Both the position numbers and the translations under genes were made by a program. Positions 2,289 through 14,991 of a stretch of DNA of 52,796 nucleotides are shown here, in pieces (the stretch's first letter is position 1; each line of letters opens with the position of its first letter). The notes beneath the pieces were generated by a model. The model saw only the letters and a program-made list of their open reading frames with translations, was not told the origin of the DNA and made no database searches. The DNA comes from a virus. Taxonomy: Duplodnaviria > Caudoviricetes. The DNA is taken from positions 1 to 52,796 of IMG/VR virus record IMGVR_UViG_3300034524_000081; one strand, written 5' to 3'.

Positions 2289-2401
2289 ACAACAACAAGT
2301 TGTAAAACCCAAAACATTATTTTGTTGTATTTTTGAAAATTATGTATTGACAACAACGAAATGTAGTTATATAATATAAACTGAACACAACAAAATGAAG
2401 T
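2289..2401. promoter_or_regulatory. Operator array, consensus ACAAC-N5-GTTGT (4 copies here, a fifth at 2623-2637)
   Basis: ACAACAACAAGTTGT 2289-2303; reverse copy 2314-2328; ACAACGAAATGTAGT 2353-2367; ACAACAAAATGAAGT 2387-2401; between divergent repressor and cro. Confidence 0.75.
2347..2375 (+). promoter_or_regulatory. Sigma-A type early lytic promoter
   Basis: TTGACA (2347-2352), 17-bp spacer, TATAAT (2370-2375); an operator fills the spacer. Confidence 0.85.
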
Positions 2402-2421: not shown

Positions 2422-2661
2422 ATGAAAAGAGAATTATTAATAACCTTAAGAGGAACAAAAAGTCAAGATAAGTTAGCAAAAGAATTAGGAATATCACAGC
2501 AATTTTTAAGTGCGATAGAATTAGGAGTAAGAAATCCTAATGTTAAATTAATGAAAAAATTTGAGGAATATTTTAAAGTACCTATGGAAGAATTGTTTCC
2601 AGATATTTTTATGAATATACGCACAACAAAATGTGATATTAAGAAAAAGGAGGCAGGTTAA
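2422..2661 (+). CDS. Cro-like XRE HTH regulator
   Basis: SQDKLAKELGISQQFLSAIELG HTH; GGAGGT RBS; divergent from repressor. Confidence 0.9.
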   Translation: MKRELLITLRGTKSQDKLAKELGISQQFLSAIELGVRNPNVKLMKKFEEYFKVPMEELFPDIFMNIRTTKCDIKKKEAG

Positions 2662-2663
2662 TC

Positions 2664-2825
2664 ATGGAACTAATCATGAAAACTATAAACCTTTCAAGAT
2701 TAACCTTAGAAGATTACGAAAACCTAGAACAATTCAGTGAAATTTTAACCATTGGTTTTGAACGTTATATTAAGGAAGTCTTAAAAGAACAAAACGGAAA
2801 GGGAGTTAAAAGCAATGTATCCTAA
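2664..2825 (+). CDS. Small hypothetical early protein (53 aa)
   Basis: Read manually (MELIMKTINLSRL...); AGGAGG RBS; not in ORF track. Confidence 0.55.
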   Translation: MELIMKTINLSRLTLEDYENLEQFSEILTIGFERYIKEVLKEQNGKGVKSNVS

Positions 2826-2964
2826 AACGTTTCCTAAAACGCTTAAATCTCAAAAAATGCTTGTAGGTTTCTTTGCGGGGTCAATATCAGAGTTTAAGAA
2901 AAAAATAGCCGCCGGAAAACTTTTATCCGACAGCTACATAAAAAGAAAAACATGCCTGAATTAA
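2815..2964 (+). CDS. Small hypothetical early protein (49 aa)
   Basis: Read manually (MYPKTFPK...); GGGAG RBS; overlaps previous stop. Confidence 0.45.
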   Translation: MYPKTFPKTLKSQKMLVGFFAGSISEFKKKIAAGKLLSDSYIKRKTCLN

Positions 2965-2992
2965 GTTTATTTTGAAAGGAGGTCAAAAGAAA

Positions 2993-3469
2993 ATGACAGG
3001 TCTTGAAAAAATAATCAAACAGGCCACCAAGGAAGCTTTGCAGGACAGACTAAAGGATTATAACTTTGATGAAATCAAAAACACACTACTAGAATTCCCT
3101 GAAAAAATTAAAAATCAGAAAATGATAGTATCTAGACACCAAGAAATTGTCGAAGATTTAAAACAGCAGATAGAACAGGAAAAAGCTATAATGGAATCCG
3201 TTATCATGGCTGAAATCGAGGCAGAAAAAGACGAAAAAGGCAAGCTGATTTATTCGAATGCCGACAAAAGGAACAGAGAACTTATAATCAGGTTTGCCAA
3301 TTTGGCTACCGAAAACAGCGAATATCAGGAACTTGTTAACCGTTTCAAGGAAGCTGAAAAGAATTTGCAGGCAGCCCAATTTGAACTTGAAACCATAGAA
3401 AACAGCTTTAAAGTTCAGAAGTATATTGTCAAGTTAATTGAGTCGGAAGTTAAACTGATAACAGGCTAA
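2993..3469 (+). CDS. Coiled-coil hypothetical protein, possible recombination accessory factor
   Basis: ATG 2993 after AGGAGG; helical charged sequence; lies in recombination module. Confidence 0.6.
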   Translation: MTGLEKIIKQATKEALQDRLKDYNFDEIKNTLLEFPEKIKNQKMIVSRHQEIVEDLKQQIEQEKAIMESVIMAEIEAEKDEKGKLIYSNADKRNRELIIRFANLATENSEYQELVNRFKEAEKNLQAAQFELETIENSFKVQKYIVKLIESEVKLITG

Positions 3470-3516
3470 AAGCCTAAAAATCAAAATTAAAAAAATAAAA
3501 AGGAGAGTGATTTTAA

Positions 3517-4260
3517 ATGGCCATGAACGCCAATGAATTGATTCTAGCCAATACAAATGAATTGACCGAAGAAGAAAGAAAAGAACTAGAAACGATGATG
3601 AAAGAAGAAATGGAACAATCACGAGAAGGAATCGAACTAAGACCGACCCTTATAAAAATTAACAAAGATACACTTCAATTTTACGATCCTTTCGGGGAAA
3701 TGTTCAAAACTTTGGAGGGTACTGTAATTTACAAGCAAAAAATCAGAGGCTATTGGGATGACCCCACAGAAAAAGTGCCGGCATGTTCTTCAATGGATTG
3801 TATTAATGGGGTAGATACCGAAACAGGCAAGGTAAGAAACTGCGCAACCTGCCCCAATAATCAATGGGGAACAGCAATAGACCAAAAAGGAAACGCAACA
3901 AAAGGTAAGGCATGTAAAGAAATGAGGAGACTTTATATCCTTCGTGATGGCGACAGAGTACCGTGCCTGCTCAGAGTGCCGCCCACATCAATAAAAAACT
4001 GCGACATATACTTCAGCAACCGAATAAATAAAGGCATCCCCGATATAGCAAGGAAGACGGTATTAAGGCTTACTGAAGCATCGAGCGGAGGCTTTAGTTA
4101 CGCTGTTATCCAGTTTGAATTAGGCGACCCGGTAACCCTGCAGGAGTTTAAGGCTTACAGGGAAATGAGAAATGCAATTAAGGCCATAGCCCAGCAGACA
4201 CAGATTACAGCAGAGGATTATGAGGAAAATGAAGATGATTCGCTAAATGCATGGGAATAA
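3517..4260 (+). CDS. Putative ssDNA-binding/recombination protein with Cys cluster and acidic tail
   Basis: CSSMDC...CATCPNNQWG...KACK; acidic C-terminus EENEDDSLNAWE; position before SbcCD. Confidence 0.5.
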   Translation: MAMNANELILANTNELTEEERKELETMMKEEMEQSREGIELRPTLIKINKDTLQFYDPFGEMFKTLEGTVIYKQKIRGYWDDPTEKVPACSSMDCINGVDTETGKVRNCATCPNNQWGTAIDQKGNATKGKACKEMRRLYILRDGDRVPCLLRVPPTSIKNCDIYFSNRINKGIPDIARKTVLRLTEASSGGFSYAVIQFELGDPVTLQEFKAYREMRNAIKAIAQQTQITAEDYEENEDDSLNAWE

Positions 4261-4282
4261 TTTTGCAATAAACTCCATATCA

Positions 4283-4359
4283 GCCGAAACGCCCCGGTTT
4301 CCTCCTCCTTTCCGGGGCGTACAGCAGAGATGGCCAACTGCTGCTGATGAGGCAGGCCA
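4283..4359 (+). ncRNA. Type II hammerhead ribozyme with pseudoknot
   Basis: GCC-GAAA-C; stem III CGCCCCGG/CCGGGGCG; GUA cleavage triplet 4319-4321; stem I CAGCAG/CTGCTG; CTGATGA 4344-4350; stem II GGC/GCC; loop I TGGCC pairs with 3' GGCCA. Confidence 0.9.
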
Positions 4360-4378
4360 GGAAGGAGGTCAAGTAAAA

Positions 4379-4582
4379 ATGGGGTTAGATAGATTTGAAT
4401 ACGGATTTTCTGATCCACAAAGCGAAGAAGCAATAGTAATCTGTGCAGGGTGTGGTGGGGGAATACACAGAAACGAAGATGTATATGTTTTCGATGGAAA
4501 AATATTTCATGATGATTGGGCATGTTTGGTGCAATACATCGACCCCAAAATAATGACTGTGGAAGAAGCCCTGAGAATCTGA
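4379..4582 (+). CDS. Small Cys/His protein, putative zinc finger
   Basis: Likely start ATG 4379 after AAGGAGG; CAGC...H...C; the longer track ORF runs through the ribozyme. Confidence 0.7.
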   Translation: MGLDRFEYGFSDPQSEEAIVICAGCGGGIHRNEDVYVFDGKIFHDDWACLVQYIDPKIMTVEEALRI

Positions 4583-4623
4583 GAATGGTTTAAAAAACGA
4601 AAGTTTGAAGGGAGGTCTAAACA

Positions 4624-4953
4624 ATGCAAATGCAGACTTTTAAGGATTTAATTAAAAGATTTATTATTGAAACTCAATTGATAGAAGACGCAACCGAAGA
4701 CAATCTTATTATTTCAGACAATTATGCTAATAGAATTAAAGCACGTATAAAAAAACAAATACAAGACGAAATTGATATAATCTTAGATTCAAAATTCATA
4801 GATTGTGAACCAGACGTTTATAAGGTAAGTTGGTTTGATTTGATGTCAAAGGAAATAATCGAATCGTTTAACAATAATGACGCAAAATTAAAAAAAACAA
4901 TATGTCTTGTTGATGAACCTGAACCGGTCAAGGGGGTTGATCCACGTGATTAG
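4624..4953 (+). CDS. Hypothetical protein
   Basis: GGAGG RBS; operon context. Confidence 0.65.
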   Translation: MQMQTFKDLIKRFIIETQLIEDATEDNLIISDNYANRIKARIKKQIQDEIDIILDSKFIDCEPDVYKVSWFDLMSKEIIESFNNNDAKLKKTICLVDEPEPVKGVDPRD

Positions 4954-6382
4954 AAGTATAGAATTGGTAAATTTTCAATCCCACAAACATTCCATTATAA
5001 ATTTCGATTCCGGCTTAAATGTTATAGTAGGCCCTACCGATTCAGGAAAAACTGCAATTTTAAGAGCCTTCCGGTGGGTAGCATACAATACTGCTCCCGG
5101 AGATTTTATCAGAGTAGGCAGTAGTAAAGCCATTGTTACTATAACGGTTGAAAACGATGACAAAATCCAAAAAATAACCAGAGAAAGAAGCAGAGGGAGT
5201 ATTAACCGATACATTATCACTGACGAAAATGGAAACGAAAAAGTTTTGGAGGGATTCGGCACTTCTGTTCCGTTGGAAGTACAGAAGATTCTTAACGTAA
5301 GAGAAGTTGATTTCGGTGGCATAGTTTTAAGACCAAATATACTGGAACAGCTTGACGGCCCGTTTTTGGGAAAATCGGTGTCAGCCCCGAACAGAGCAAA
5401 GGTTCTAGGCAAACTTGCCGGCACTGAAAAAATAGATAAAGCAAACAAGGAACTGGGAACAGATTTATACCGCAAAGGGCAGGAAGAAAAACGAATTCAG
5501 AAAGACCTGAGACAATTGGAAGAAAATATAAAGGAATATGATTACCTTCCGGCCATAAAAGAAAGAATTGACATTCTGAAAGGCATACTTGAAAAGCTGA
5601 AAAAAGATAAAGAAATCCACACCAGACTGGTTTTCCTTAAAAACAATTTAGCGAATACAAAACGAGAATACGCAAGGACGCAGTATATTCTCGACAATTT
5701 AAATCTGATAATCCCTGAAACTGAAATAATTTTGAACGGCCTGATATTAGCCATAGAACATCACAAACGATTGAAAATGTTACAAACTAAATTCAATGAG
5801 GTTTTAATCGGCATAGAAAAAAACAAAAAAGTAATAGCAGAGACAAAAGAAATAGATAATGTTTTATCTATTATTAATTCTGCAAATCAGGCAGTAGAAA
5901 AGCATAATAGGCTGGTTAAGCTGTATCAAAAATATGTTTCAATTAATCAATCAGAGAAAAACAATCAATCGGTATTAGCCAGAACTCAATTTATTGATGA
6001 TATTCTTAATGATTTAGGAGAGATGAGGTTAAGGATTAACACTTATAAGCTATTTAAAACATTTAAAGAGAAATTAGACAGAATCATAAAACAAGAATCA
6101 GTTGCATCACAGCAGATAACCAAGACGGATTCAATCAATAAGGTATTTGAAATAGAAAACAGCATCAGAAATAAGATAGAGGAGTTTTTTGATCTGCAAA
6201 AATGGCAAAAACAAATGAATAATTTAACTTCAAGTATCAATGCTGCTCAAAAAAGAATAGATGAACTTAAACAAAAGGCTGAAAAAACCGAAGCTGATTA
6301 TATCAATACTTTAAAACAAATGGGGGTATGCCCGCTGTGCGGGAATAAAATTAATGAAAATAAATTAAAGGAGGTCATATAA
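4946..6382 (+). CDS. SbcC/Rad50-like ATPase, N-terminal part
   Basis: GTG start 4946; NFQSH, Walker A GPTDSGKT, long coiled coil, zinc-hook CPLCG. Confidence 0.88.
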   Translation: MIRSIELVNFQSHKHSIINFDSGLNVIVGPTDSGKTAILRAFRWVAYNTAPGDFIRVGSSKAIVTITVENDDKIQKITRERSRGSINRYIITDENGNEKVLEGFGTSVPLEVQKILNVREVDFGGIVLRPNILEQLDGPFLGKSVSAPNRAKVLGKLAGTEKIDKANKELGTDLYRKGQEEKRIQKDLRQLEENIKEYDYLPAIKERIDILKGILEKLKKDKEIHTRLVFLKNNLANTKREYARTQYILDNLNLIIPETEIILNGLILAIEHHKRLKMLQTKFNEVLIGIEKNKKVIAETKEIDNVLSIINSANQAVEKHNRLVKLYQKYVSINQSEKNNQSVLARTQFIDDILNDLGEMRLRINTYKLFKTFKEKLDRIIKQESVASQQITKTDSINKVFEIENSIRNKIEEFFDLQKWQKQMNNLTSSINAAQKRIDELKQKAEKTEADYINTLKQMGVCPLCGNKINENKLKEVI

Positions 6383-6383
6383 G

Positions 6384-6626
6384 ATGATTAACAATGTAAC
6401 CGAAAAATTGAATCTCTTAAAACAAAAGGCTGAAAAGGCCAAAATGGAAAGGACAAAAGCGGAAGCAAATCTTGAAAACTTGAAAAAACAGAAAGAAGAA
6501 ATTATTTCAGAACTGGCGGAACTAGGGGTAAAATCTGAAGAACTGGATTCAAAAATAGAACAGTTAGAAAAAGAAATCGAAGAAGGATTAAAAAAGGCAG
6601 AGGGGTTGTTGAAAGATGTTTATTGA
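6384..6626 (+). CDS. Coiled-coil protein, middle piece of split SbcC
   Basis: AGGAGG RBS; heptad-rich; lies between the two ATPase halves. Confidence 0.7.
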   Translation: MINNVTEKLNLLKQKAEKAKMERTKAEANLENLKKQKEEIISELAELGVKSEELDSKIEQLEKEIEEGLKKAEGLLKDVY

Positions 6627-7266
6627 TATAAATATGCTTGAATCTAAATTGCAGGACTTAAAAGAAAAATACAGCAGGGCAAGCGGTGAACTTGCCCTGC
6701 TCAAACGGCAAAAAGAGGCTAAACAAAAAGAGTTAGTAGAAATTCAAAATGACATTAAAAAATATCAACTTATACAGATATTGTATACCGAGGCATCGGA
6801 ATTTACCAGACAGCAGATTAAAACCAGAATAGATGATACCGTTACGGCTGCTCTCCAGACTGTATTGGAAGATAACGAAATTCGTTTCAATACCGAAATG
6901 AAACAGTATACAGGCCAGCCTGCTGCATACTGGCAGGTAATTGACAAATACGGCGAATTTGAAGTATGCAACAGCCCCGAAGACAGCAGGGGAGGCGGAA
7001 TAGTAGATATGGTTTCGATAGCTTTAAATTTAATCGTATTGGAACTTATTGAGCCTCCACTTGCAGGTCCGTTTTTTGCAGACGAACCAGCAAAAATGGT
7101 CTCAAGAGAATATCTACCAAATTTATCAGCATTTCTAAAATCATATTCAAAAGAAAAACAGAGGCAAATAATTATGATTACTCATGCTATGGTGCATGAA
7201 AAACATGCCGATAAGCTGATTAAGGTCGGCAAAAAGAATGGAGAAAGCGAGGTCGAGGAATTATGA
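6616..7266 (+). CDS. SbcC/Rad50-like ATPase, C-terminal part
   Basis: Signature-like SRGGG, Walker B FFADEP, H-loop IMITH. Confidence 0.85.
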   Translation: MFIDINMLESKLQDLKEKYSRASGELALLKRQKEAKQKELVEIQNDIKKYQLIQILYTEASEFTRQQIKTRIDDTVTAALQTVLEDNEIRFNTEMKQYTGQPAAYWQVIDKYGEFEVCNSPEDSRGGGIVDMVSIALNLIVLELIEPPLAGPFFADEPAKMVSREYLPNLSAFLKSYSKEKQRQIIMITHAMVHEKHADKLIKVGKKNGESEVEEL

Positions 7267-8261
7267 CGTTAAGGTTTATAGCCACAAACGACTGGCACTG
7301 GCGTAGCGTCAATCCTAGAGGCAGAATAGACAATTACAATGAAGCATTAAAGATAAAAATAAAAGAAATTTTTGATATGGCAGACGAAATGGAAGTAGAC
7401 GCTATTCTTGTTGCAGGAGATATTTTTGACAGCCCGGGGGTTGGATGGGGAACGGTTTACGATTTAATGGATTTGCTTTCCAATAGACCCTGCCCGATAT
7501 GTGCTATTGCAGGCCAGCATGACGAATGGGATCACGATCCGGAATCTCTTAACAGGACTCCGTTTGGAATATTGGAAAAGGCGGGATTGATTATTAATAT
7601 TGCAAAATATCCTCAATTTATAACTTTGGGTTCTCAATGGCTAAAAATAACCGGCAGACATTATTCCTATGAAGCTGATAGGGCAGAATGGTATTATGAT
7701 ATACCAAATGATTTGATCCATGAAAAAAGCGATATAACTATCATGCTTTCTCATGGAACTGTTTTGGAAAGATCTCCGGGATTTGATATGAAATATACCC
7801 TTGTTGAAAACATCAAAAGCCGAGCAGATGTTATCTGTGTCGGGGATTATCACCCCGGCATAGGAATCAAGGAATTTAAAAATATGTTCGGTTGCAAAGG
7901 ATATGTTATTAATCCGGGTTCGCTGGCAAGGCTTAAAGCCACGACAGAAAACATGGAACGGCTTGTAAGTGTGGCGTATTTTGAGATAACGGAAGAAGGG
8001 ATTATTAACCCAAAAAAAATTATACCCCTGGATTCGGCCAAACCGGGAAAAGATGTTTTATCGAGAGAGCATTTAGAAAGAATGGAGGAAAAACAGGCTA
8101 TGCTTAATGAGTTTTTAGGACTGCTTTCTAATGACAGCAGAATCAAGTTTCTTAATTCAAGGCAAGTAATTGAGACAATCGCAAAAGAAAAAGGGTATCC
8201 TGATGAGGTTGTTAGAGAGGCATTGGAAAGGTTAAATAGAGCAGAAGAAGGGGAGGCGTAA
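7263..8261 (+). CDS. SbcD/Mre11-like metallophosphoesterase nuclease
   Basis: DWH, AGDIFD, GQHD, SHG, GDYH and NPGS motifs. Confidence 0.9.
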   Translation: MTLRFIATNDWHWRSVNPRGRIDNYNEALKIKIKEIFDMADEMEVDAILVAGDIFDSPGVGWGTVYDLMDLLSNRPCPICAIAGQHDEWDHDPESLNRTPFGILEKAGLIINIAKYPQFITLGSQWLKITGRHYSYEADRAEWYYDIPNDLIHEKSDITIMLSHGTVLERSPGFDMKYTLVENIKSRADVICVGDYHPGIGIKEFKNMFGCKGYVINPGSLARLKATTENMERLVSVAYFEITEEGIINPKKIIPLDSAKPGKDVLSREHLERMEEKQAMLNEFLGLLSNDSRIKFLNSRQVIETIAKEKGYPDEVVREALERLNRAEEGEA

Positions 8262-8264
8262 ATT

Positions 8265-8486
8265 ATGGAAAGGTTTGAAAAAGCTGAACAGTTAAAAGAT
8301 AAGTTGATTGAAATTTTGAAAGAGTTCAAAGAATGGGAGTGCCCCATGTTGTTAAATTCAAAAAAAACAAAATCAATATTCGGCAACAGGAAATTATGCG
8401 AAGATTGTATTTTTAACGTCAATATATACATTCCTTATGCAGATTCTTACAGAATGTGTGATTTATTAGAAATATTCTGTAACTGA
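8265..8486 (+). CDS. Small Cys-containing hypothetical protein
   Basis: GGAGG RBS; CP...CEDC...C. Confidence 0.6.
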   Translation: MERFEKAEQLKDKLIEILKEFKEWECPMLLNSKKTKSIFGNRKLCEDCIFNVNIYIPYADSYRMCDLLEIFCN

Positions 8487-8997
8487 TAGATTACAGGACG
8501 TAGTTAAATACAATTTTGATTTGTCGTATGATTTTTCTCAATGGTACAATCTGTTTGGCTCTCAATTATCGCAAAAAGATTTCACAAAATTTTTAAAATG
8601 TTTGCCCGATGGTCAGTTAAAAGATTATGAATCGTTATTAGCAAGTGTCCAGAAGTTGAAAATAGCAACCCAGATAACAGGAGATTATGAATATGAAGAC
8701 GATAACAATATTACGATTATGTTTAAAGCAAAGGATGGCGAAGGTTCGGCCAGACTACCCAAAACATTATCAATTGAATTATGTTTGTTGAATGAAAGTC
8801 AATACAAACAAACAATCGAGATTGAGCTTAAATTAATTAAACCTAAATCCGAAAATGAAAAACCACATTTTGAAATACAGTGTCCGAAAATAAAAAGATA
8901 TCTTGATGAAGCAATTAAACATGCGATAAATGATATGAAAGAACAATTAAATGAATTTCTAATTGTAGCTGGTCGGCCAGATTTGCGAAATGGGTAA
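8470..8997 (+). pseudogene. 5'-truncated gene, possibly YfdQ/DUF2303-like
   Basis: Frame is open from 8470 but has no RBS or good start; sequence resembles the C-terminal part of this phage family (from recall). Confidence 0.4.
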
Positions 8998-9029
8998 TTA
9001 TATAGGGGCGAATATTCGCCCCTATATAA
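8998..9029. terminator. Perfect 32-bp palindrome, probable terminator hairpin
   Basis: TTATATAGGGGCGAAT/ATTCGCCCCTATATAA directly after a stop codon. Confidence 0.6.
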
Positions 9030-9083
9030 AGCTTTTGTAAATATGATTGATAGTGATTAGTAAAAAGGAGGTCGAACCGAACC

Positions 9084-11234
9084 ATGAAGGAATCAGCAAT
9101 TGCAAAACCCAAAATAGAGACTATTCAGGAGGAAATCCAATCGGTTATATTCCACAATCCTAAAAACGGTTACTGTGTATTAAAGTTATACGGCGATACA
9201 ATTGCAGTAGGTTATATGTCGAATATCCGGGAAGGAGATACTTTTAAATTTACAGGTGTATGGAAGAAACATCCTCAATACGGTCAGCAATTTCATTTTA
9301 CCGAATATGAATTAATTTTACCGCAGACACGAATAGGGATTATAAATTATCTTTCTTCAATAGCTTACGGGATAGGCCCCATTAAAGCTTCTAAAATCGT
9401 TGAAGCTTTAGGGGATTCAACGTTAGAAATCATCAAAAACGATCCTGATAAATTAAGACAGTTGGATTTTATTAAGCCTGAACAGGCTGAAGAAATTATT
9501 TCTAAATTCCATGAAAACAAAATATTAGCAGAACTTACATCTATGATATGCAAACAGGGGATTACTCCGAAACTTGCAACAAAAATATATAAGGTATACG
9601 GTAATGAATCTATCAGGGTAGTTAAAGAAAATCCTTATATTCTGGCCGATGATATGTTTGGAGTAGGATTTAAAACAGCCGATAGAATTGCGCAGGCCAC
9701 AGGCATTGAACCTAATTCACCTTTTAGAATAGAGGCGGCCGTTGAATTTACTTTAAAAGAAGCTGCTAATGAGGGACATGTGTATTTGCCACCGCAAATA
9801 CTGGTTAAAAAAGTAAAGGAGCTATTAGGCCGGGGCTGCGGTGTATCAGGAAAAGACATAAAAAAAGCCGCCGAAAATCAAGCGGCAAAAGAAAAAGTAA
9901 AGATAGAAAATAATTGTGTGTATCATTCTTCATTATATCGGGACGAGTACGAACTGGCAACAAGACTAAAAATGCTGGTAAAACAAAAACAACAAAAACA
10001 AAGAGAGATTAAAAATATAGATGGATTGACAAAACAGATTGAAGGCAGGTTAGGAATCAGGTATGCAGATCAGCAAAAACTGGCCATTAAAACAGCTTTA
10101 ACTTCTCCAGTATGTATTATCACGGGAGGCCCGGGCACAGGAAAAACCACCATAACAAATGCTATAGTAGACATCTACAAATCTATACATAGATACCCAG
10201 TAATATATCTTGCTTCACCTACGGGAAGGGCGGCCAAAAGGTTGTCTGAATCTACGGATATGGAAGCCAAAACTATTCACAGGTTGCTTCATTATCATCC
10301 CGAAGGCGGATTTGAATATAATGCAGCCAATCCCTTGCCATCAGGGCTGCTTATTGTTGATGAATTTTCCATGGCTGATATTGAGCTGTCTTCATATTTG
10401 TTTGATGCTGTAGAAAACGATATGCAGGTTGTTATGGTCGGCGATGTTGAACAGCTCCCATCTGTAGGCCCCGGGTCGGTGCTTAGAGACTGCATCATGT
10501 CGGGAGTTATACCTACGATTAGGCTTAAATATAATTACCGGCAGGCGGTAGGTTCAACCATAGCAGATATAGCTCATCAAATCGTAGAAGGAATTGTTCC
10601 CGAATTAGTCGAGACCGATGATTTGAAACCGATAGCTTTTGATGATCCTGAAGATGGATTAAGAATCGTGAAAAACATTGTAGAACAGTTACAAAAAGAA
10701 AAAGTAGGAATCATGGATTTTCAGGTATTGACGCCGATGAAAAAAAGTTTGTTAGGGGTTAATTCATTGAATGAAATGGTCAGAAATATTGTTAATCCTG
10801 CTGGCAGCAAGCCTGAGATTAAATACGGAAAAGAGATATATAGAGTTGGAGATAAGGTGATGGTTCAGAAAAACAATTATTTGAAAGGGGTTTTTAACGG
10901 AGATATAGGGGTTGTAGTAGGGGCAGACAAAACAGGAATTGATATTGATGTGGAAGGCGAGATAGTGAGATACGAAAGAGATGAACTGAACGAAATAAGT
11001 CTGGCATATGCAAGCACGGTTCACAAAGCCCAGGGGTCTGAATTTCCTTTTGCTATAGTTATATGTTCAACATCTCACTTCATTATGTTACAAAGAAATT
11101 TGCTTTATACTGCGGTTACCAGGGCAAAGAAAAGGCTGTATTTAGTGTATCAGCCAAGAGCGCTAAAAATTGCGGTAAAGAATGACAAGATTGCAGATAG
11201 ATACAGTTTGCTGAAAGAAAGATTGAGGGATTGA
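9084..11234 (+). CDS. recD2: ATP-dependent RecD-like DNA helicase (RecD2)
   Basis: N-terminal OB/HhH region, GGPGTGKT, IVDEFSM, GDVEQLPSVGPG, AYASTVHKAQGSE, LLYTAVTRAK. Confidence 0.93.
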   Translation: MKESAIAKPKIETIQEEIQSVIFHNPKNGYCVLKLYGDTIAVGYMSNIREGDTFKFTGVWKKHPQYGQQFHFTEYELILPQTRIGIINYLSSIAYGIGPIKASKIVEALGDSTLEIIKNDPDKLRQLDFIKPEQAEEIISKFHENKILAELTSMICKQGITPKLATKIYKVYGNESIRVVKENPYILADDMFGVGFKTADRIAQATGIEPNSPFRIEAAVEFTLKEAANEGHVYLPPQILVKKVKELLGRGCGVSGKDIKKAAENQAAKEKVKIENNCVYHSSLYRDEYELATRLKMLVKQKQQKQREIKNIDGLTKQIEGRLGIRYADQQKLAIKTALTSPVCIITGGPGTGKTTITNAIVDIYKSIHRYPVIYLASPTGRAAKRLSESTDMEAKTIHRLLHYHPEGGFEYNAANPLPSGLLIVDEFSMADIELSSYLFDAVENDMQVVMVGDVEQLPSVGPGSVLRDCIMSGVIPTIRLKYNYRQAVGSTIADIAHQIVEGIVPELVETDDLKPIAFDDPEDGLRIVKNIVEQLQKEKVGIMDFQVLTPMKKSLLGVNSLNEMVRNIVNPAGSKPEIKYGKEIYRVGDKVMVQKNNYLKGVFNGDIGVVVGADKTGIDIDVEGEIVRYERDELNEISLAYASTVHKAQGSEFPFAIVICSTSHFIMLQRNLLYTAVTRAKKRLYLVYQPRALKIAVKNDKIADRYSLLKERLRD

Positions 11235-11265
11235 ATTTGAAAGCAATACAGAAAGGAGTAAGGAT

Positions 11266-11427
11266 ATGAACAAATCAGAACAAACCTTTATCAAATTACG
11301 AGGATGCGAAGGATGCAGAAAAAACTGCAAATATAACCACGGCATAGCATTAAAGGAAAGGGTCGAAGAAGAAATCGGGACAGGGCAGTTGTATGGCTGC
11401 AATTCTACTTTAAAAAATTTAACCTAA
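11266..11427 (+). CDS. Small Cys-rich hypothetical protein (53 aa)
   Basis: Read manually; AAAGGAG RBS; CEGCRKNC. Confidence 0.5.
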   Translation: MNKSEQTFIKLRGCEGCRKNCKYNHGIALKERVEEEIGTGQLYGCNSTLKNLT

Positions 11428-11500
11428 TTTATATATATCCAGAAAAGTTTAGAAATATACACGGTTTTTGAAAATGATTTAATTCAAAGGGGTAATTAAA

Positions 11501-12340
11501 ATGCTTAAAGAACTTACTTTGTTCGGTGAAATCGATAAGGTCAAAACAGCAATAGAGCGGATACGTGAATTCGAGCCGCCAGAAGGATATTATTTGGCCT
11601 TCAGCGGCGGCAAAGATAGTTTATGTATATATCATCTTGCTAAGGAAGCAGGCGTAAAATTTGATGCCCATTACAACCTGACTACTGTTGACCCGCCAGA
11701 GCTGGTATATTTTATCAGAGAAAATTATCCTGACGTACAGATAGATAGACCAAAAAAGACAATGTGGCAGTTGATTATCGAGAATGGCGGACCTCCTACG
11801 AGGGTGCAAAGATATTGCTGTCGTTATCTAAAAGAACGCGGTGGAGAAGGCAGGTTTTGTATAACAGGAGTAAGATGGGCAGAAAGCATAAAAAGAAAAA
11901 GAACAAGAGGATTGGCTGAATTTATGGGAAGGACAGCAAAAGAAAAAATACTTTTCAATGATAATGATAAAATGCGCCGAATGATGGAAAATTGTCAATT
12001 AAAGGGGAAGTTTGTTCTCAACCCTATAATAGATTGGGAAGATGCTGACGTTTGGCAATATATTAAAAGTCGAAATTTAAAATATTGTAGTTTATATGAT
12101 GAAGGGATAAAACGTATAGGCTGTATAGGCTGTCCAATGGCCAAACCAGAGCGAAGAGAATGGGAATTAAAACGCTGGCCTAAATATAGAGCAAACTACA
12201 TAAGAGCTTTTGAAAGGATGTTACGGTATAGGAGAGAGCACGGGAAAAAAGAAATATGGACTGATGCCGAAGATGTAATGAATTGGTGGATATACCAGCC
12301 ACCGAAAAGCAATCCTAATCAAATTGTATTGTTTGAATAA
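11501..12340 (+). CDS. PAPS-reductase family protein
   Basis: AFSGGKDS PP-loop, RYCC, GVRWAES, RIGCIGCP. Confidence 0.9.
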   Translation: MLKELTLFGEIDKVKTAIERIREFEPPEGYYLAFSGGKDSLCIYHLAKEAGVKFDAHYNLTTVDPPELVYFIRENYPDVQIDRPKKTMWQLIIENGGPPTRVQRYCCRYLKERGGEGRFCITGVRWAESIKRKRTRGLAEFMGRTAKEKILFNDNDKMRRMMENCQLKGKFVLNPIIDWEDADVWQYIKSRNLKYCSLYDEGIKRIGCIGCPMAKPERREWELKRWPKYRANYIRAFERMLRYRREHGKKEIWTDAEDVMNWWIYQPPKSNPNQIVLFE

Positions 12341-12375
12341 TCATTTTGCTTATTTTCACCCGTGAGGTGTTGTGA

Positions 12376-14991
12376 ATGACAGAAAAAACAGAAAAAAAAG
12401 AAACAACAATGCAAGAACCAAAGATGCAAGAACCAAAGATACAAGAATCAAAGATACAAGAACCACAAAATAAAAAATCCGTATATCAAAGATACATAGA
12501 ACTTGCAACATTAACTGAAGAAGATAAGAAATCTTTAAAGAAAAAACGAGGTTTTTCCGATGATACTATAAATACTTTCAGGTTTGTTTCAGGGGGCCCG
12601 TATATATCAAAAATAACGAATCAACTTATTAGAGAATATTCCGAGCAGGAACTCATCGAATCAGGAATTGTGGTAGAAACAAACGGAACTATTACACCGA
12701 ACAGCCAGCTTTTAGATAAGCGAATAATTATTCCTTATATAGATGAAAACGGAAATGTATATCATTTAAGGCCGCATAAGTTAGGATTTCATGGTATTCC
12801 TCCACAGCCATACTGCCGTTTCATGCTGAAAGACAAGCCCGAACATATAGTATTAACGGAAGGAGAGTTTAAGGCCGCCGCATTATGGCAATGGGGGATA
12901 CCTGCGATGGCCATTCCGGGGATAAGCAGTTTTAGCGGAAAGCATTTTGATAGGTTTGTAAATCTATTAAAAGAGTTTGAAATTAAGAAAATAACAATCA
13001 TTTATGATAACGAAGAAAAAGGGAATCCTGCTTATCCGAATTTTAAGGAAAAAGCCGAGGATAGGTACGATACCTTGTTCTGGGCATACATAATGGCATG
13101 GAAGTTAAACAGGGCAGGGTTTATCACCCATATAGGCATGCTCCCTTCAGCATGGCGTGAAAACGGAAAAATAGATTTTGATATGGCACTAGCACAGGGA
13201 AGGACAAGAAAAGATATTGAAAGGGTTATTGCATCAGCAAAAACGTATTCGGAGTTTTTAGCAGGTCTTGAAGGGGAAGCATTAAAAGTCGTAAGGCGCA
13301 AGGTTAGCAAATACTTCGCAAAAACGAATATAAGGAGAGAATTTAATAAATACGTTGCCGTCAGAACCAGCCAAAAAGGCGATTACGAAGAAACTATTTC
13401 TAATTTTGTCATTAACATTAAATCTAGTTTTTACACTCCCGATGGCGTGGTTAGAAACGTTGAATTTGTCAATGAATACGGCGAAAAATCGGACGTGTTT
13501 CCCCTGCATCCTTCAGACATGGCCGGATTAAATGAGTTTAAGAAATTCTGTTTCAGTAAAGGGAATTATCTTTTTAAAGGCAGAACAGAAGACCTGCTCA
13601 ATATATGGGAATCGGAGTTTTTAAGAGATTCGGGAGAATTGATTTATATGCCTGAAAAGATAGGCAGGATTGAAGACGATTTATGGTTATTCGGAAACAT
13701 GGCCATAAAAGGCGGAAAGGTTTACAGGCCGGATAATGACGGTATTATTTGGATTGACGGGAAAGGATACAAGCCGCAGTCTTTACAGATTAATCCCAGG
13801 GGCGAACCTATTGAAGATGCTATTCCTTCCTTGTGCGAACAGGAAATAAACATAGTTGATGTGGCGCTGAAATTAAAGCAGACGATTGGAGGATACGAAG
13901 CATATATGGGCCTCGGTTGGGTTGTAGCAACGATATTCAGCGATGATATTTTCAAACATTATAAATGCTTTCCTATTTTATTCCCACATGGCAAGCGAAT
14001 GTCGGGTAAGTCAACGTTTTTGCGGTGGCTGATGTCTTTTTTCGGAGTAGAAACAGAAGGCTACGGACTTGCAGAGACTTCTCAAAATTTTATAGCAAGG
14101 GCGCTCAGTTATTTCAGCTCACTTGGCGTATGGTTTGACGAATACAGAAATGAAACGAAAATCACACAAAAAGACGGGTTTTTTAGAAGCGCATATAACC
14201 GACAGCTGTCAGGCAAGGGAACAGCCACAGCATTTCAGGCCCGGGGATATGCGGTAAATGCAGCCATTGCAATATCAGGCGAGGAATTACCGAAGGATAA
14301 TGGATTGTTTACAAGATGCATCCCGATTCAAATATCAGCTTATAAAAGGGACCGGACATGGTTTGATTGGTTCAATAAATACTGTTATCAGTTTTCAAAT
14401 TTTACTTACCATCTAATCAAAAATTACGACAAGTATAAAGACAGAATCTTGGAAAACATTCAGGAACTTAAAGAGGTTTTAGTTGAAGCAGATATAACGG
14501 ACAGGACTGCCGAAAACTGGGCTATATGCGCAGCGGCTTTTGAGTCTACAATACTTCAGGATGAAGATTTTATCAGGTGGGTGTTTGAAACATGTCAGGA
14601 TATTAAGATCACCGGCGAACAAGAACATATGTTAAATATGTTCTGGGAAGATGTAATTTATCTTGTAGCTAAGAATGAAATTACTGATAACGAAATCAAA
14701 ATTGATGACGTAAATAATACCATGTATATTTGGTTTAACGGTATTTACAATACATGGTCAGTATATTATCGAAAAAAAACAGGAAATCAGCCTTTTGATA
14801 AACAATCAATTTCAAAATATCTTCAGGATGAACCTTACTACAACGGCAAAAAGAATGTTAAATTTGGAAAAACAACAAGATATTCTTATGTAATAGATTT
14901 AACTAAAGCCCCTGATACGTTTAATGAAATTGTTGATGTAATTTTAGAAAAAACCATGGAACAAACACCAACGTTCACTTTAACTAACTAA
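12376..14991 (+). CDS. Primase-helicase (Toprim domain + P-loop ATPase)
   Basis: LTEGEFKA and IIYDNE Toprim motifs; GKRMSGKS Walker A; WFDEYR Walker B. Confidence 0.82.
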   Translation: MTEKTEKKETTMQEPKMQEPKIQESKIQEPQNKKSVYQRYIELATLTEEDKKSLKKKRGFSDDTINTFRFVSGGPYISKITNQLIREYSEQELIESGIVVETNGTITPNSQLLDKRIIIPYIDENGNVYHLRPHKLGFHGIPPQPYCRFMLKDKPEHIVLTEGEFKAAALWQWGIPAMAIPGISSFSGKHFDRFVNLLKEFEIKKITIIYDNEEKGNPAYPNFKEKAEDRYDTLFWAYIMAWKLNRAGFITHIGMLPSAWRENGKIDFDMALAQGRTRKDIERVIASAKTYSEFLAGLEGEALKVVRRKVSKYFAKTNIRREFNKYVAVRTSQKGDYEETISNFVINIKSSFYTPDGVVRNVEFVNEYGEKSDVFPLHPSDMAGLNEFKKFCFSKGNYLFKGRTEDLLNIWESEFLRDSGELIYMPEKIGRIEDDLWLFGNMAIKGGKVYRPDNDGIIWIDGKGYKPQSLQINPRGEPIEDAIPSLCEQEINIVDVALKLKQTIGGYEAYMGLGWVVATIFSDDIFKHYKCFPILFPHGKRMSGKSTFLRWLMSFFGVETEGYGLAETSQNFIARALSYFSSLGVWFDEYRNETKITQKDGFFRSAYNRQLSGKGTATAFQARGYAVNAAIAISGEELPKDNGLFTRCIPIQISAYKRDRTWFDWFNKYCYQFSNFTYHLIKNYDKYKDRILENIQELKEVLVEADITDRTAENWAICAAAFESTILQDEDFIRWVFETCQDIKITGEQEHMLNMFWEDVIYLVAKNEITDNEIKIDDVNNTMYIWFNGIYNTWSVYYRKKTGNQPFDKQSISKYLQDEPYYNGKKNVKFGKTTRYSYVIDLTKAPDTFNEIVDVILEKTMEQTPTFTLTN

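What the first reader, a model, noticed from the sequence alone, without database searches (positions are those of the whole stretch)
4298..4381. Ribozyme stem III loop carries an anti-Shine-Dalgarno for the next gene
Seen: the stem III loop is UUUCCUCCUCCUUU. Its CCUCCUU (4304-4310) is the exact complement of AAGGAGG (4362-4368), the RBS of the gene starting at 4379, just past the pseudoknot. Inference: pairing would block translation until self-cleavage releases the 5' product that carries the loop, giving a cleavage-timed translational switch. The freed 5' RNA would also end in an exposed anti-SD hairpin that might act in trans. I do not know of a described example, but cannot check the literature.
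Basis: inference. Interest (0 to 1): 0.75.

Follow-up and report, generated by a model that had tools for sequence, protein, structure and literature searches.

The report
Phage hammerhead with anti-Shine-Dalgarno loop
A genuine self-cutting hammerhead RNA sits just ahead of a phage gene and carries an unusually long loop that could pair with that gene's ribosome-binding site, but comparison with about 260 related ribozymes shows the loop is a one-off, so a switch is possible but unproven.

Summary
Rfam finds a type II hammerhead at 4282-4361. Its stem III loop (4298-4311) reads UUUCCUCCUCCUUU. CCUCCUU (4304-4310) is the exact complement of AAGGAGG (4362-4368), which lies 10 nt before the ATG at 4379. 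Cleavage after A4321 would leave the loop on the 5' product and the ribosome-binding site on the 3' product.

The proposed switch is neither shown nor excluded.
- Of 262 parsed relatives, 250 have a 3-6 nt loop III; the window's 14 nt is the longest.
- Among 8 other lineages with loops of 7 nt or more, two complement their SD (6 and 5 nt). Together this is not beyond chance.
- The window's own match has p about 0.009 against random loops but only 0.05-0.10 against shuffles of the loop, so pyrimidine composition explains most of it.
- By inference, the pairing would compete with the loop I-tail pseudoknot needed for fast cleavage.

What is general to the family is position: 244 of 258 ribozymes have an SD plus start codon within 45 nt downstream.

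Best reading: an ordinary intercistronic processing ribozyme with an odd, probably incidental, loop (0.5). Cis anti-SD switch: 0.25.

The parts
2347..2375 (+). Promoter-like site (TTGACA-17-TATAAT, 12 of 12) that probably starts the rightward operon holding the ribozyme
   Evidence: No comparable promoter and no + strand terminator lies between it and 4379.
3517..4260 (+). Upstream gene (247 aa, phrog_23155, function unknown); stop codon at 4258-4260
4271..4278 (+). AACUCCAU, complementary to AUGGGGUU at 4379-4386 (start codon region). A possible second clamp on the translation start; weak.
   Evidence: MFE fold (z -1.28). Duplex -10.1 kcal/mol, p 0.029 against random 20-mers.
4282..4361 (+). 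Type II hammerhead ribozyme (whole Rfam match)
   Evidence: 40.7 bits, gathering 37; (66.4 bits with model R1)
4283..4285 (+). Stem II, 3' strand (GCC). Pairs with GGC 4351-4353. This is the open stem that defines type II.
   Evidence: Rfam alignment; read
4286..4289 (+). Core GAAA (G12 A13 A14 A15.1)
4289..4297 (+). Stem III, 5' strand (ACGCCCCGG). Pairs with 4312-4320 (CCGGGGCGU); 9 pairs.
4298..4311 (+). Loop III, UUUCCUCCUCCUUU = UU(UCC)3UUU. Anti-SD in two registers. With the next two bases it is the longest pyrimidine run on the sense strand.
   Evidence: 16-nt run, next longest 13; 0.11 runs of 14 or more expected; longest loop III of 262
4319..4322 (+). Cleavage site: GUA (4319-4321), cut before C4322
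   Evidence: Position in the Rfam alignment. GUA is found in 13 of 262 relatives and GUC in 221. Cleavage itself was not tested.
4322..4343 (+). Stem I (CAGCAG 4322-4327 / CUGCUG 4338-4343) with loop I AGAUGGCCAA (4328-4337)
4344..4350 (+). Core CUGAUGA
4355..4359 (+). 3' tail GGCCA. Forms the pseudoknot with UGGCC 4331-4335 of loop I (5 pairs).
   Evidence: -9.8 kcal/mol. This is the family feature described in PMC3088659.
4362..4368 (+). Shine-Dalgarno AAGGAGG of the next gene; complement of 4304-4310
   Evidence: (one of 14 AAGGAGG on the + strand of the window)
4379..4582 (+). Downstream gene, 67 aa, phrog_4331, function unknown

Best explanation
This is a bona fide type II hammerhead ribozyme inside a phage early operon. 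It does what the family appears to do in phages generally. It cuts the polycistronic mRNA between the stop codon of one gene (4260) and the ribosome-binding site of the next. The upstream mRNA is left ending in the GC-rich stem III hairpin with a 2',3'-cyclic phosphate. The downstream mRNA is left starting with a 5'-OH and the stem I hairpin plus pseudoknot, directly before its SD.

The 14-nt (UCC)3 loop III is an atypical insertion at a position that takes no part in the family's tertiary contact. Its perfect complementarity to the adjacent AAGGAGG is real. Most likely it is a by-product of a pure-pyrimidine loop facing a purine-rich ribosome-binding site, not a selected switch.

Shown: the ribozyme's identity and layout, the complementarity, the rarity of such loops, and the family-wide position just upstream of a translation start.

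Inferred: cleavage in vivo, the fates of the two products, and the neutrality of the loop.
For: Ribozyme identity:
- Rfam 40.7 bits against a gathering score of 37; model R1 gives 66.4 bits.
- All core letters, three stems, the GUA triplet and a 5-bp pseudoknot are present.

Operon context:
- A 12 of 12 promoter-like site lies at 2347-2375, with no terminator or strong promoter near the ribozyme.

Family position:
- An SD-like motif plus start codon lies within 45 nt of the ribozyme's 3' end in 244 of 258 relatives, at a median of 16 nt.
- The same test is met at 353 of 1285 random same-strand positions.
- In the first, smaller set the figure was 94 of 99.

The loop is not a family trait:
- Terminal loop III is 3-6 nt in 250 of 262 relatives.
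- Relatives with the same AGGCCAGGAA(A)GGAGG flank (L205, L211, L238) have 3-5 nt loops without an anti-SD.
- Targeted scans for CTCC upstream of loop I in IMG/VR (55 stretches) gave no other long unpaired CUCC loop among the 30 ribozymes parsed from their newly fetched loci (10 more matches did not fold).

Composition explains most of the match:
- 5-10% of shuffles of the loop reach the observed pairing. The median shuffle is already -11.5 kcal/mol.

Alternative partner:
- The purine-rich sense strand also offers GAGGAAA at 4222-4228, the complement of the loop's 5' half.

Review:
- Processing of polycistronic transcripts has been suggested for bacterial hammerheads, and the function is still open (PMC6765202, passages).
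Against: The loop is a real outlier.
- It is the longest loop III of 262.
- It is the longest pyrimidine run on 50 kb of sense strand, where 0.11 runs of 14 nt or more are expected.
- It matches the adjacent SD perfectly over 7 nt, at p about 0.009 against random loops.
- CCTCCTT occurs only 5 times on the + strand in the part of the window where genes lie on that strand.

Two other long-loop relatives also complement their own SD. L338:2789 (same as L404:3259) has UCUCCA against UGGAGA, 6 nt, p 0.011. L200 has CCUCC against GGAGG, p 0.12.

A neutral loop expansion is an argument from lack of evidence. No close relatives with sequence differences inside the ribozyme were available. No experiment bears on it.
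Confidence: 0.5

Rival explanations
1. Cis anti-SD switch. In the uncleaved transcript, loop III pairs with the SD over 7-8 bp and blocks 30S binding. Cleavage turns this intramolecular clamp into a weak bimolecular one, the 5' product leaves, and translation of the 67-aa gene starts. Expression of that gene is thereby delayed or capped relative to transcription.
For: - Exact 7-nt complement plus a G-U, with a second 6-bp register.
- Duplex of -11 to -13.9 kcal/mol, stronger than the pseudoknot's -9.8.
- In the nested ensemble the loop is unpaired (at least 0.96) and five of the seven SD letters are mostly unpaired (0.82-0.96); the last two (4367-4368) are mostly paired (0.03, 0.13). The loop and most of the SD are therefore free to meet.
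- The loop is an outlier in length and composition, with p 0.009 against random loops.
- Two more long-loop relatives complement their own SD.
- Engineered hammerhead and twister platforms that sequester the SD gain 5- to 100-fold expression on cleavage (PMC5052635, passages).
- The loop is unchanged in a variant from another study whose neighbouring spacer has 5 substitutions and 2 insertions. This is weak, because the variant is nearly identical elsewhere too.
Against: - It is not a family trait: 250 of 262 relatives have 3-6 nt loops.
- Over the 8 other long-loop lineages, my Fisher combination of the p values is about 0.4. The best single p (0.011) is about 0.09 after correction.
- Shuffles of the loop reach the match in 5-10% of trials.
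- Geometry (inference from recalled hammerhead structures and from PMC3088659): the tail pairs with loop I beside stem II, and loop III lies at the far end of stem III. The 2-nt linker cannot let both pairings form, so the clamp would also slow cleavage.
- The pairing is a pseudoknot, which the folding tools here cannot score.
Confidence: 0.25
2. Ribozyme throttle. The SD:loop III pairing and the loop I:tail pseudoknot are alternative fates of the same 3' tail. The loop therefore tunes the rate of cleavage, or couples it to ribosome binding at the SD, rather than gating translation.
For: - The SD starts 3 nt after the pseudoknot strand.
- The pseudoknot is critical for fast cleavage (PMC3088659, abstract and passages).
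- The competing duplex is the stronger one by the same measure.
Against: - The mutual exclusion is inferred, not modelled.
- There is no comparative support.
- It is unclear what a slower ribozyme would be for.
Confidence: 0.08
3. Trans-acting anti-SD. After cleavage, the upstream mRNA ends in a stable hairpin that displays CCUCCUCC. This hairpin pairs with the SDs of other phage or host mRNAs, in the manner of C-rich-loop small RNAs of Firmicutes.
For: - A 9-bp GC-rich stem with a fully unpaired loop.
- 14 AAGGAGG sites on the + strand of the window as possible targets.
- C-rich loops that target SDs are an established design (RNAIII, RsaE/RoxS; recalled, no call).
Against: - The carrier would be a translated mRNA of at least 1.9 kb, not a defined small RNA (for the promoter).
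- There is no conservation.
- Nothing sets it apart from any pyrimidine loop.
Confidence: 0.07
4. Something on the other strand. There the loop reads AAAGGAGGAGGAAA, which could be an SD for a minus-strand gene.
For: The minus strand shows a strong SD-like run.
Against: - The nearest minus-strand ATG is about 25 nt away, and only short overlapping ORFs lie there (a 30-aa ORF at 4280-4372 and a 101-aa ORF at 4218-4523).
- All credible genes from 2422 onward are on the + strand.
Confidence: 0.02

Closest known systems
Type II hammerhead ribozymes of bacteria and phages (Rfam RF02276; Perreault et al. 2011, PMC3088659)
   Same: The core letters, the three-stem layout with stem II open, the loop I to 3' tail pseudoknot, and an intergenic position in a phage operon are all shared. 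The window's element is a member.
   Different: Loop III is 14 nt of pure pyrimidine. Relatives have 3-6 nt in 250 of 262 cases. The triplet is GUA (13 of 262) rather than GUC (221 of 262).
Engineered hammerhead and twister expression platforms that sequester the SD (PMC5052635, passages; the original hammerhead designs of Ogawa and Maeda and of Wieland and Hartig, 2008, are recalled and were not seen)
   Same: The logic is the same: an anti-SD on one side of the cleavage site, the SD on the other, and cleavage freeing the SD.
   Different: In the engineered systems the SD and anti-SD form one of the ribozyme's own helices, so folding and masking cooperate. Here the anti-SD is a hairpin loop and the SD lies outside the ribozyme. 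The pairing would be a pseudoknot that competes with the ribozyme's tertiary contact. No natural case was found in print.
Ribozyme insulators such as RiboJ (recalled; no call)
   Same: A self-cleaving ribozyme placed directly upstream of an SD removes upstream RNA context and leaves a hairpin before the ribosome-binding site. This matches the family-wide placement found here.
   Different: RiboJ is synthetic and built on a different ribozyme scaffold, and it has no anti-SD.
glmS ribozyme (mentioned in PMC6765202 and PMC5052635, passages; the mechanism is recalled)
   Same: It is a natural bacterial ribozyme whose cleavage changes expression of the downstream gene.
   Different: glmS is ligand-dependent, and cleavage leads to mRNA decay. 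It has no SD masking.
C-rich-loop small RNAs that pair with SDs (RNAIII, RsaE/RoxS; recalled)
   Same: An exposed C- and U-rich hairpin loop is complementary to GGAGG-type sites.
   Different: Those are discrete small RNAs with conserved loops and known targets. Here the loop sits at the end of a long mRNA fragment and is not conserved.

Membership tests
Hammerhead ribozyme, type II (RF02276) | Covariance-model score at or above the curated gathering score | tested here: met
   40.7 bits against 37, E 6.3e-05; E 1.5e-08 for the single record; 66.4 bits with family model R1
Hammerhead ribozyme, type II (RF02276) | Conserved core CUGAUGA ... GAAA and a cleavage triplet of the form N-U-H | tested here: met
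   CUGAUGA at 4344-4350, GAAA at 4286-4289, GUA at 4319-4321
Hammerhead ribozyme, type II (RF02276) | Stems I and III closed by loops, stem II open | tested here: met
   Stem III has 9 bp, stem I 6 bp, and stem II 3 bp formed by the two ends
Hammerhead ribozyme, type II (RF02276) | Pseudoknot of 4 or more pairs between loop I and the tail just after stem II | tested here: met
   UGGCC 4331-4335 pairs with GGCCA 4355-4359, -9.8 kcal/mol. The criterion comes from PMC3088659.
Hammerhead ribozyme, type II (RF02276) | Self-cleavage activity | not testable with these tools
   The one RNA run that held part of the stretch covered only 4482-4643, and as a contig
Cis SD-sequestering translational control element | Anti-SD complementary to the SD core of the regulated gene | tested here: met
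   7 Watson-Crick pairs plus 1 G-U, with a second register of 6; -11 to -13.9 kcal/mol
Cis SD-sequestering translational control element | The masking structure is predicted to form | tested here: inconclusive
   The pairing is a pseudoknot. The nested ensemble leaves the loop and most of the SD unpaired, and SD accessibility is much the same in precursor and 3' product. No pseudoknot or 3D tool was available.
Cis SD-sequestering translational control element | Conservation or covariation of the anti-SD and SD in relatives | tested here: not met
   Loops are 3-6 nt in 250 of 262 relatives. Only 2 of 8 other long-loop lineages complement their SD, with a combined p of about 0.4. Close relatives that differ within the ribozyme were not available.
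Cis SD-sequestering translational control element | Effect on translation | not testable with these tools
   Needs reporters or toeprinting
Trans-acting C-rich-loop small RNA | A discrete, stable small RNA with a conserved C-rich loop and identifiable targets | tested here: inconclusive
   The loop and stable stem are present. However, the carrier is the 3' end of a long mRNA and the loop is not conserved. Stability and targets cannot be tested here.

The most novel reading that the evidence does not exclude
This phage hammerhead is a natural ribozyme-gated ribosome-binding site. The long CCUCC loop on the 5' side of the cut clamps the SD on the 3' side. It competes with the catalytic pseudoknot, so it also sets the clock. 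Self-cleavage then frees the SD irreversibly. This would be the first natural counterpart of the engineered hammerhead and twister SD-sequestering switches. Two further candidates (L338:2789 with its near-copy L404:3259, and L200) hint that it arose more than once.
Probability: 0.25. Interest if true: 0.7.

Novelty: new member of a known kind. Interest (0 to 1): 0.4.

Why it matters
The biological role of the thousands of hammerheads in bacteria and phages is still open (PMC6765202, passages).

If the loop really masks the SD, this would give one of them a concrete, testable job. It would also show that nature found the design that synthetic biologists built for ribozyme switches.

If the loop is incidental, the survey made here is still useful. 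In about 95% of 258 phage and prophage type II hammerheads, the ribozyme ends a median of 16 nt before a start codon that has an SD. This points to a general role in shaping the 5' end of the downstream cistron, and it can be tested with the same constructs.

Tried and rejected
**Syntenic homologues**
- Relatives of the upstream protein in IMG/VR (6 loci, 32-40% identity) hold no hammerhead at E up to 0.1.
- The downstream protein found no relative.
- blastn of the region against GenBank phages found nothing.
- tblastn found only 31-36% identical proteins, the best being Thermoanaerobacterium phage THSA-485A and Faecalibacterium phage FP_Epona. This suggests a clostridial-type host but gives no ribozyme comparison.

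**Pattern scans**
- The two exact patterns were mostly chance hits. My first regex recognised only L028 as a ribozyme. The later model search showed that many loci do hold hammerheads.
- The pattern CGAAAC...CTGATGA...AGGCCAGG gave mostly coding-sequence chance matches in genomes and metagenomes. 22 of about 130 distinct matches parsed as ribozymes.

**Other searches**
- Rfam search of 150 genomes of one class gave 2 genomes with a match, one of them the genome that centred the search (G001), so I dropped this route.
- blastn of the ribozyme against phages at E up to 10 gave a 19-nt identity to the loop region in Pakpunavirus genomes. It lies inside an annotated minus-strand CDS of JG004, with no hairpin. 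I treat it as chance.
- The Rfam E-value scan of the whole window found no second ribozyme.

**Sequencing runs**
- The RNA run X9 covers only 4482-4643, as a contig, so it says nothing on cleavage or expression.
- Contigs of X4 stop at 4320 and resume at 4332 at low depth. I draw nothing from that gap.
- The X4 variant is too similar outside 4259-4281 to test selection on the loop.

**Weak or failed tests**
- The helix AACUCCAU with AUGGGGUU has p 0.029 and the MFE z-score is -1.28. I note it but do not rely on it.
- L200 as independent support: p 0.14 against its own GC-rich background.
- In the parses, 30 pattern matches, 10 and 16 model hits did not fold under my rules and were left out of the counts. 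4 of the 154 hits fell outside the 150-row alignment.
- I dropped rows L223:1016 and L126:422 from the long-loop test as mis-parsed.

Dataset S1 of PMC3088659 (hammerhead alignments) may hold similar loops and could not be seen.
Full report
**1. What is there**

The window is a complete 52.8-kb IMG/VR virus record of about 36% G+C. Almost all genes from 2422 onward lie on the + strand.

Rfam places one family above threshold: Hammerhead_II (RF02276) at 4282-4361, + strand, 40.7 bits against a gathering score of 37. An E-value scan of the whole window adds no other ribozyme.

Reading the sequence against the Rfam alignment gives this layout:
- Stem II: GCC 4283-4285 with GGC 4351-4353.
- Core GAAA: 4286-4289.
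- Stem III: 4289-4297 with 4312-4320 (9 pairs).
- Loop III: 4298-4311, UUUCCUCCUCCUUU.
- Cleavage triplet: GUA 4319-4321, with the cut before C4322.
- Stem I: 4322-4327 with 4338-4343.
- Loop I: AGAUGGCCAA.
- Core CUGAUGA: 4344-4350.
- Pseudoknot: tail GGCCA 4355-4359 pairs with UGGCC 4331-4335 of loop I.

AAGGAGG follows at 4362-4368 and ATG at 4379. The ATG opens a 67-aa ORF that matches phrog_4331 (E 2.3e-08).

The upstream gene (3517-4260, phrog_23155) ends 21 nt before the ribozyme. A 12 of 12 consensus promoter-like site lies at 2347-2375. No promoter of that quality and no + strand terminator lies near the ribozyme. The ribozyme therefore sits about 1.9 kb into a polycistronic transcript.

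**2. The observation**

CCUCCUU (4304-4310) is the exact complement of AAGGAGG (4362-4368). G4361-U4311 could add an eighth pair, and a second register gives 6 pairs. The loop is on the 5' cleavage product and the SD is on the 3' product.

RNAduplex energies are -11.0 to -13.9 kcal/mol for loop III against the downstream region, depending on the stretch offered. The pseudoknot scores -9.8.

The loop is also present, unchanged, in contigs of a run from a different study (X4). The spacer 4259-4281 of that variant carries 5 substitutions and 2 insertions. The loop is therefore not an assembly error. That variant is otherwise nearly identical (1 change in 3983-4258), so it says nothing about selection on the loop.

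**3. Is it more than chance?**

Three nulls give different answers.
- Random 14-nt loops reach a 7-nt perfect complement in the 30 nt downstream in 0.9% of trials.
- Random 14-mers of the phage's own sense strand reach the observed energy in 0.8-1.2%.
- Shuffles of the loop's own letters do so in 5-10%. The median shuffle already pairs at -11.5 kcal/mol.

The exact complement is thus largely a consequence of the loop being pure pyrimidine next to a purine-rich ribosome-binding site. The real oddity is the loop itself.

With the two following bases it is the longest pyrimidine run (16 nt) on 50 kb of purine-rich sense strand. Only 0.11 runs of 14 nt or more are expected there. It has a (UCC)3 period, which is compatible with slippage.

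CCTCCTT occurs 5 times on the + strand of the + strand-coded part, and AAGGAGG occurs 14 times. My own arithmetic on those counts: any such pair within 80 nt somewhere in the window would arise by chance about one time in ten. One inside this particular loop would arise about one time in a thousand.

The loop's 5' half also has a 7-nt partner, GAGGAAA, at 4222-4228 inside the upstream ORF.

**4. Relatives**

No close homologue with sequence differences inside the ribozyme could be fetched.
- Loci encoding relatives of the upstream protein (6 loci, 32-40% identity) have no hammerhead.
- The downstream protein found none.
- Nucleotide searches of GenBank phages found nothing.

I therefore sampled the ribozyme family.

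Motif patterns taken from the window's ribozyme were scanned in IMG/VR, GTDB genomes and metagenomes. A covariance model was built from 63 of the hits (A1 and R1). It was run over all 413 held loci and the window.

This gave 344 hits at E up to 0.01. Of these, 340 entered alignments, 278 were distinct sequences, and 262 could be parsed.

Terminal loop III sizes in the 262:

| Loop III size | Number of ribozymes |
|---|---|
| 3-6 nt | 250 |
| 7 nt | 6 |
| 8 nt | 2 |
| 10 nt | 2 |
| 12 nt | 1 |
| 14 nt (the window, the longest) | 1 |

Two mis-parsed rows were dropped, which leaves 10 long-loop rows in 9 lineages. Excluding the window, the 8 other lineages behave as follows:
- L338:2789 (same as L404:3259) has loop CUCUCCA against SD UGGAGA, 6 nt, p 0.011. 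Its pseudoknot has a different sequence, so it is an independent lineage.
- L200 has loop AUCCCCUCCC against GGAGG, 5 nt, p 0.12. Against its own GC-rich background the p is 0.14.
- L280:5953 has a 4-nt match (p 0.32).
- The other five have 3 nt or nothing.

Combining the eight p values by Fisher's method (my arithmetic) gives about 0.4. The best single value is about 0.09 after correction for eight tests.

Relatives that share the window's exact flank, AGGCCAGGAA(A)GGAGG, have 3-5 nt loops without an anti-SD (L205, L211, L238). Targeted IMG/VR scans for CTCC upstream of loop I (55 stretches) found mostly CCC-UCCG-GGG tetraloop stems. No other long unpaired CUCC loop appeared among the 30 ribozymes parsed from their newly fetched loci (10 more matches did not fold).

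An anti-SD loop is therefore not a property of the family. There may be a few scattered cases, but the data do not show an excess.

**5. What the family does share**

In 244 of 258 relatives with enough flank, an SD-like motif and a start codon lie within 45 nt of the ribozyme's 3' end, at a median of 16 nt. The same test is met at 353 of 1285 random same-strand positions. The first, smaller set gave 94 of 99.

A stop triplet lies within 25 nt upstream in 98 of 99, counted in any reading frame. This is a loose test with no control. The printed examples show the upstream stop codon abutting stem II.

Some phage contigs carry many copies: 10 distinct in L323, 9 in L394, 7 in L262.

These ribozymes are therefore intercistronic elements placed exactly between one gene's stop codon and the next gene's ribosome-binding site. 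This fits the suggestion in the literature that bacterial hammerheads process polycistronic transcripts into pieces of different stability or translatability. The reviewers call that suggestion unproven (PMC6765202, passages; PMC3088659, passages).

**6. Mechanism**

Most likely (0.5), the window's ribozyme does the family job.
- The 5' product, the mRNA for 2422-4260, ends in the 9-bp GC-rich stem III hairpin with a cyclic phosphate.
- The 3' product begins with a 5'-OH and the stem I hairpin plus pseudoknot, 3 nt before the SD. It resembles an engineered ribozyme insulator (recalled).
- The long loop is an insertion at a position that makes no tertiary contact in this family.

In cis the 7-8 bp helix would be favoured. 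After cleavage only the 3-bp stem II and this helix hold the products together, so the 5' product should leave within seconds (my estimate from the duplex energy).

It has a snag, however. [quoted passage not shown] Loop III lies at the far end of stem III, which stacks on stem II in solved hammerheads (recalled). Only two nucleotides separate the pseudoknot strand from the SD.

The two pairings should therefore exclude each other (inference). The clamp would slow the cleavage that relieves it. That makes either a slow timer or a throttle on the ribozyme (0.08).

Nested folding cannot score the pairing. In that model the loop is at least 96% unpaired, and SD accessibility is about the same in the precursor and in the 3' product.

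A second complementarity, AACUCCAU 4271-4278 with AUGGGGUU 4379-4386, would keep the start codon clamped even after cleavage. It is weak (p 0.029, MFE z -1.28).

Action of the freed hairpin in trans (0.07) has no evidence beyond the loop's shape.

**7. Comparison with what is known**

Membership in RF02276 is met on every sequence criterion. Activity was not testable.

The switch model works like the engineered hammerhead and twister platforms that sequester the SD and gain 5- to 100-fold expression on cleavage (PMC5052635, passages). It differs in that the anti-SD here is a loop outside the ribozyme's helices.

Full-text searches found no natural hammerhead described with an anti-SD. The term sets were:
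- hammerhead ribozyme + Shine-Dalgarno + bacteriophage;
- hammerhead + type II + pseudoknot + phage + self-cleaving;
- hammerhead + anti-Shine-Dalgarno;
- aptazyme terms;
- function terms.

PMC3088659 and PMC8782182 do not contain 'Shine' or 'ribosome binding' in their main texts. Their supplements could not be read.

**8. Verdict**

The ribozyme is a new member of a known family with an unusual loop. The anti-SD switch is a fair hypothesis that the comparative data neither support nor exclude. It needs an amendment for its conflict with the pseudoknot.

Interest is 0.4. If the switch were shown, interest would be about 0.7.

Noticed in passing
Loci L257-L413 (IMG/VR) and others; statistics: Type II hammerheads of this subfamily end a median of 16 nt before a start codon with an SD. 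This holds for 244 of 258, against 353 of 1285 random same-strand positions. In the printed examples the upstream stop codon abuts stem II. The family therefore looks like a stop-to-SD intercistronic element.
   Followed up: partly
L323 (about 3600-9070), L394 (about 10000-13420), L262 (about 8400-11330): Arrays of hammerheads in single phage contigs: 10, 9 and 7 distinct copies within about 3-6 kb, apparently one before nearly every gene. The window has only one.
   Followed up: no
L338:2789-2886 (-) and L404:3259-3356 (-): A hammerhead with an extended stem III. Its 7-nt terminal loop CUCUCCA contains the exact complement of the downstream SD UGGAGA (6 nt, p 0.011). Its pseudoknot has a different sequence (GAUC type). 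It is the best other candidate for an anti-SD loop.
   Followed up: partly
window 4271-4278 and 4379-4386: AACUCCAU, upstream of the ribozyme, is complementary to AUGGGGUU at the start codon of the next gene (8 pairs, one G-U). It is part of the MFE fold, at -10.1 kcal/mol and p 0.029. It is unchanged in the X4 variant although the spacer beside it varies.
   Followed up: partly
window 4259-4281: In contigs of run X4 (another study), the spacer between the stop codon and the ribozyme has 5 substitutions and 2 insertions (AAAG and AA). The 276 nt of coding sequence before it have 1 change, and 4282-4320 have none. It is a small hypervariable spot.
   Followed up: no
window 4222-4228: GAGGAAA inside the upstream ORF is the exact complement of the loop's 5' half, UUUCCUC (4298-4304). 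It is a second possible partner for the loop.
   Followed up: no
window 2347-2375 (+): A perfect sigma-70-type consensus (TTGACA, 17 nt, TATAAT) lies just before an XRE-like HTH gene (2422-2661). It faces a divergent 10 of 12 site on the minus strand (2306-2279). This looks like a lysogeny-switch region.
   Followed up: no
window 39344-50095 (+): A single 3583-aa ORF lies in the late region. It is very large for a 52.8-kb phage and was not examined.
   Followed up: no
window 4907-8261 (+): An SbcC/SbcD-like nuclease module is split into several ORFs: 491 aa (AAA_23/SMC_N), 80 aa, 216 aa (ATPase C-terminal part) and 332 aa (metallophosphatase). A RecD2-like helicase follows at 9084-11234.
   Followed up: no
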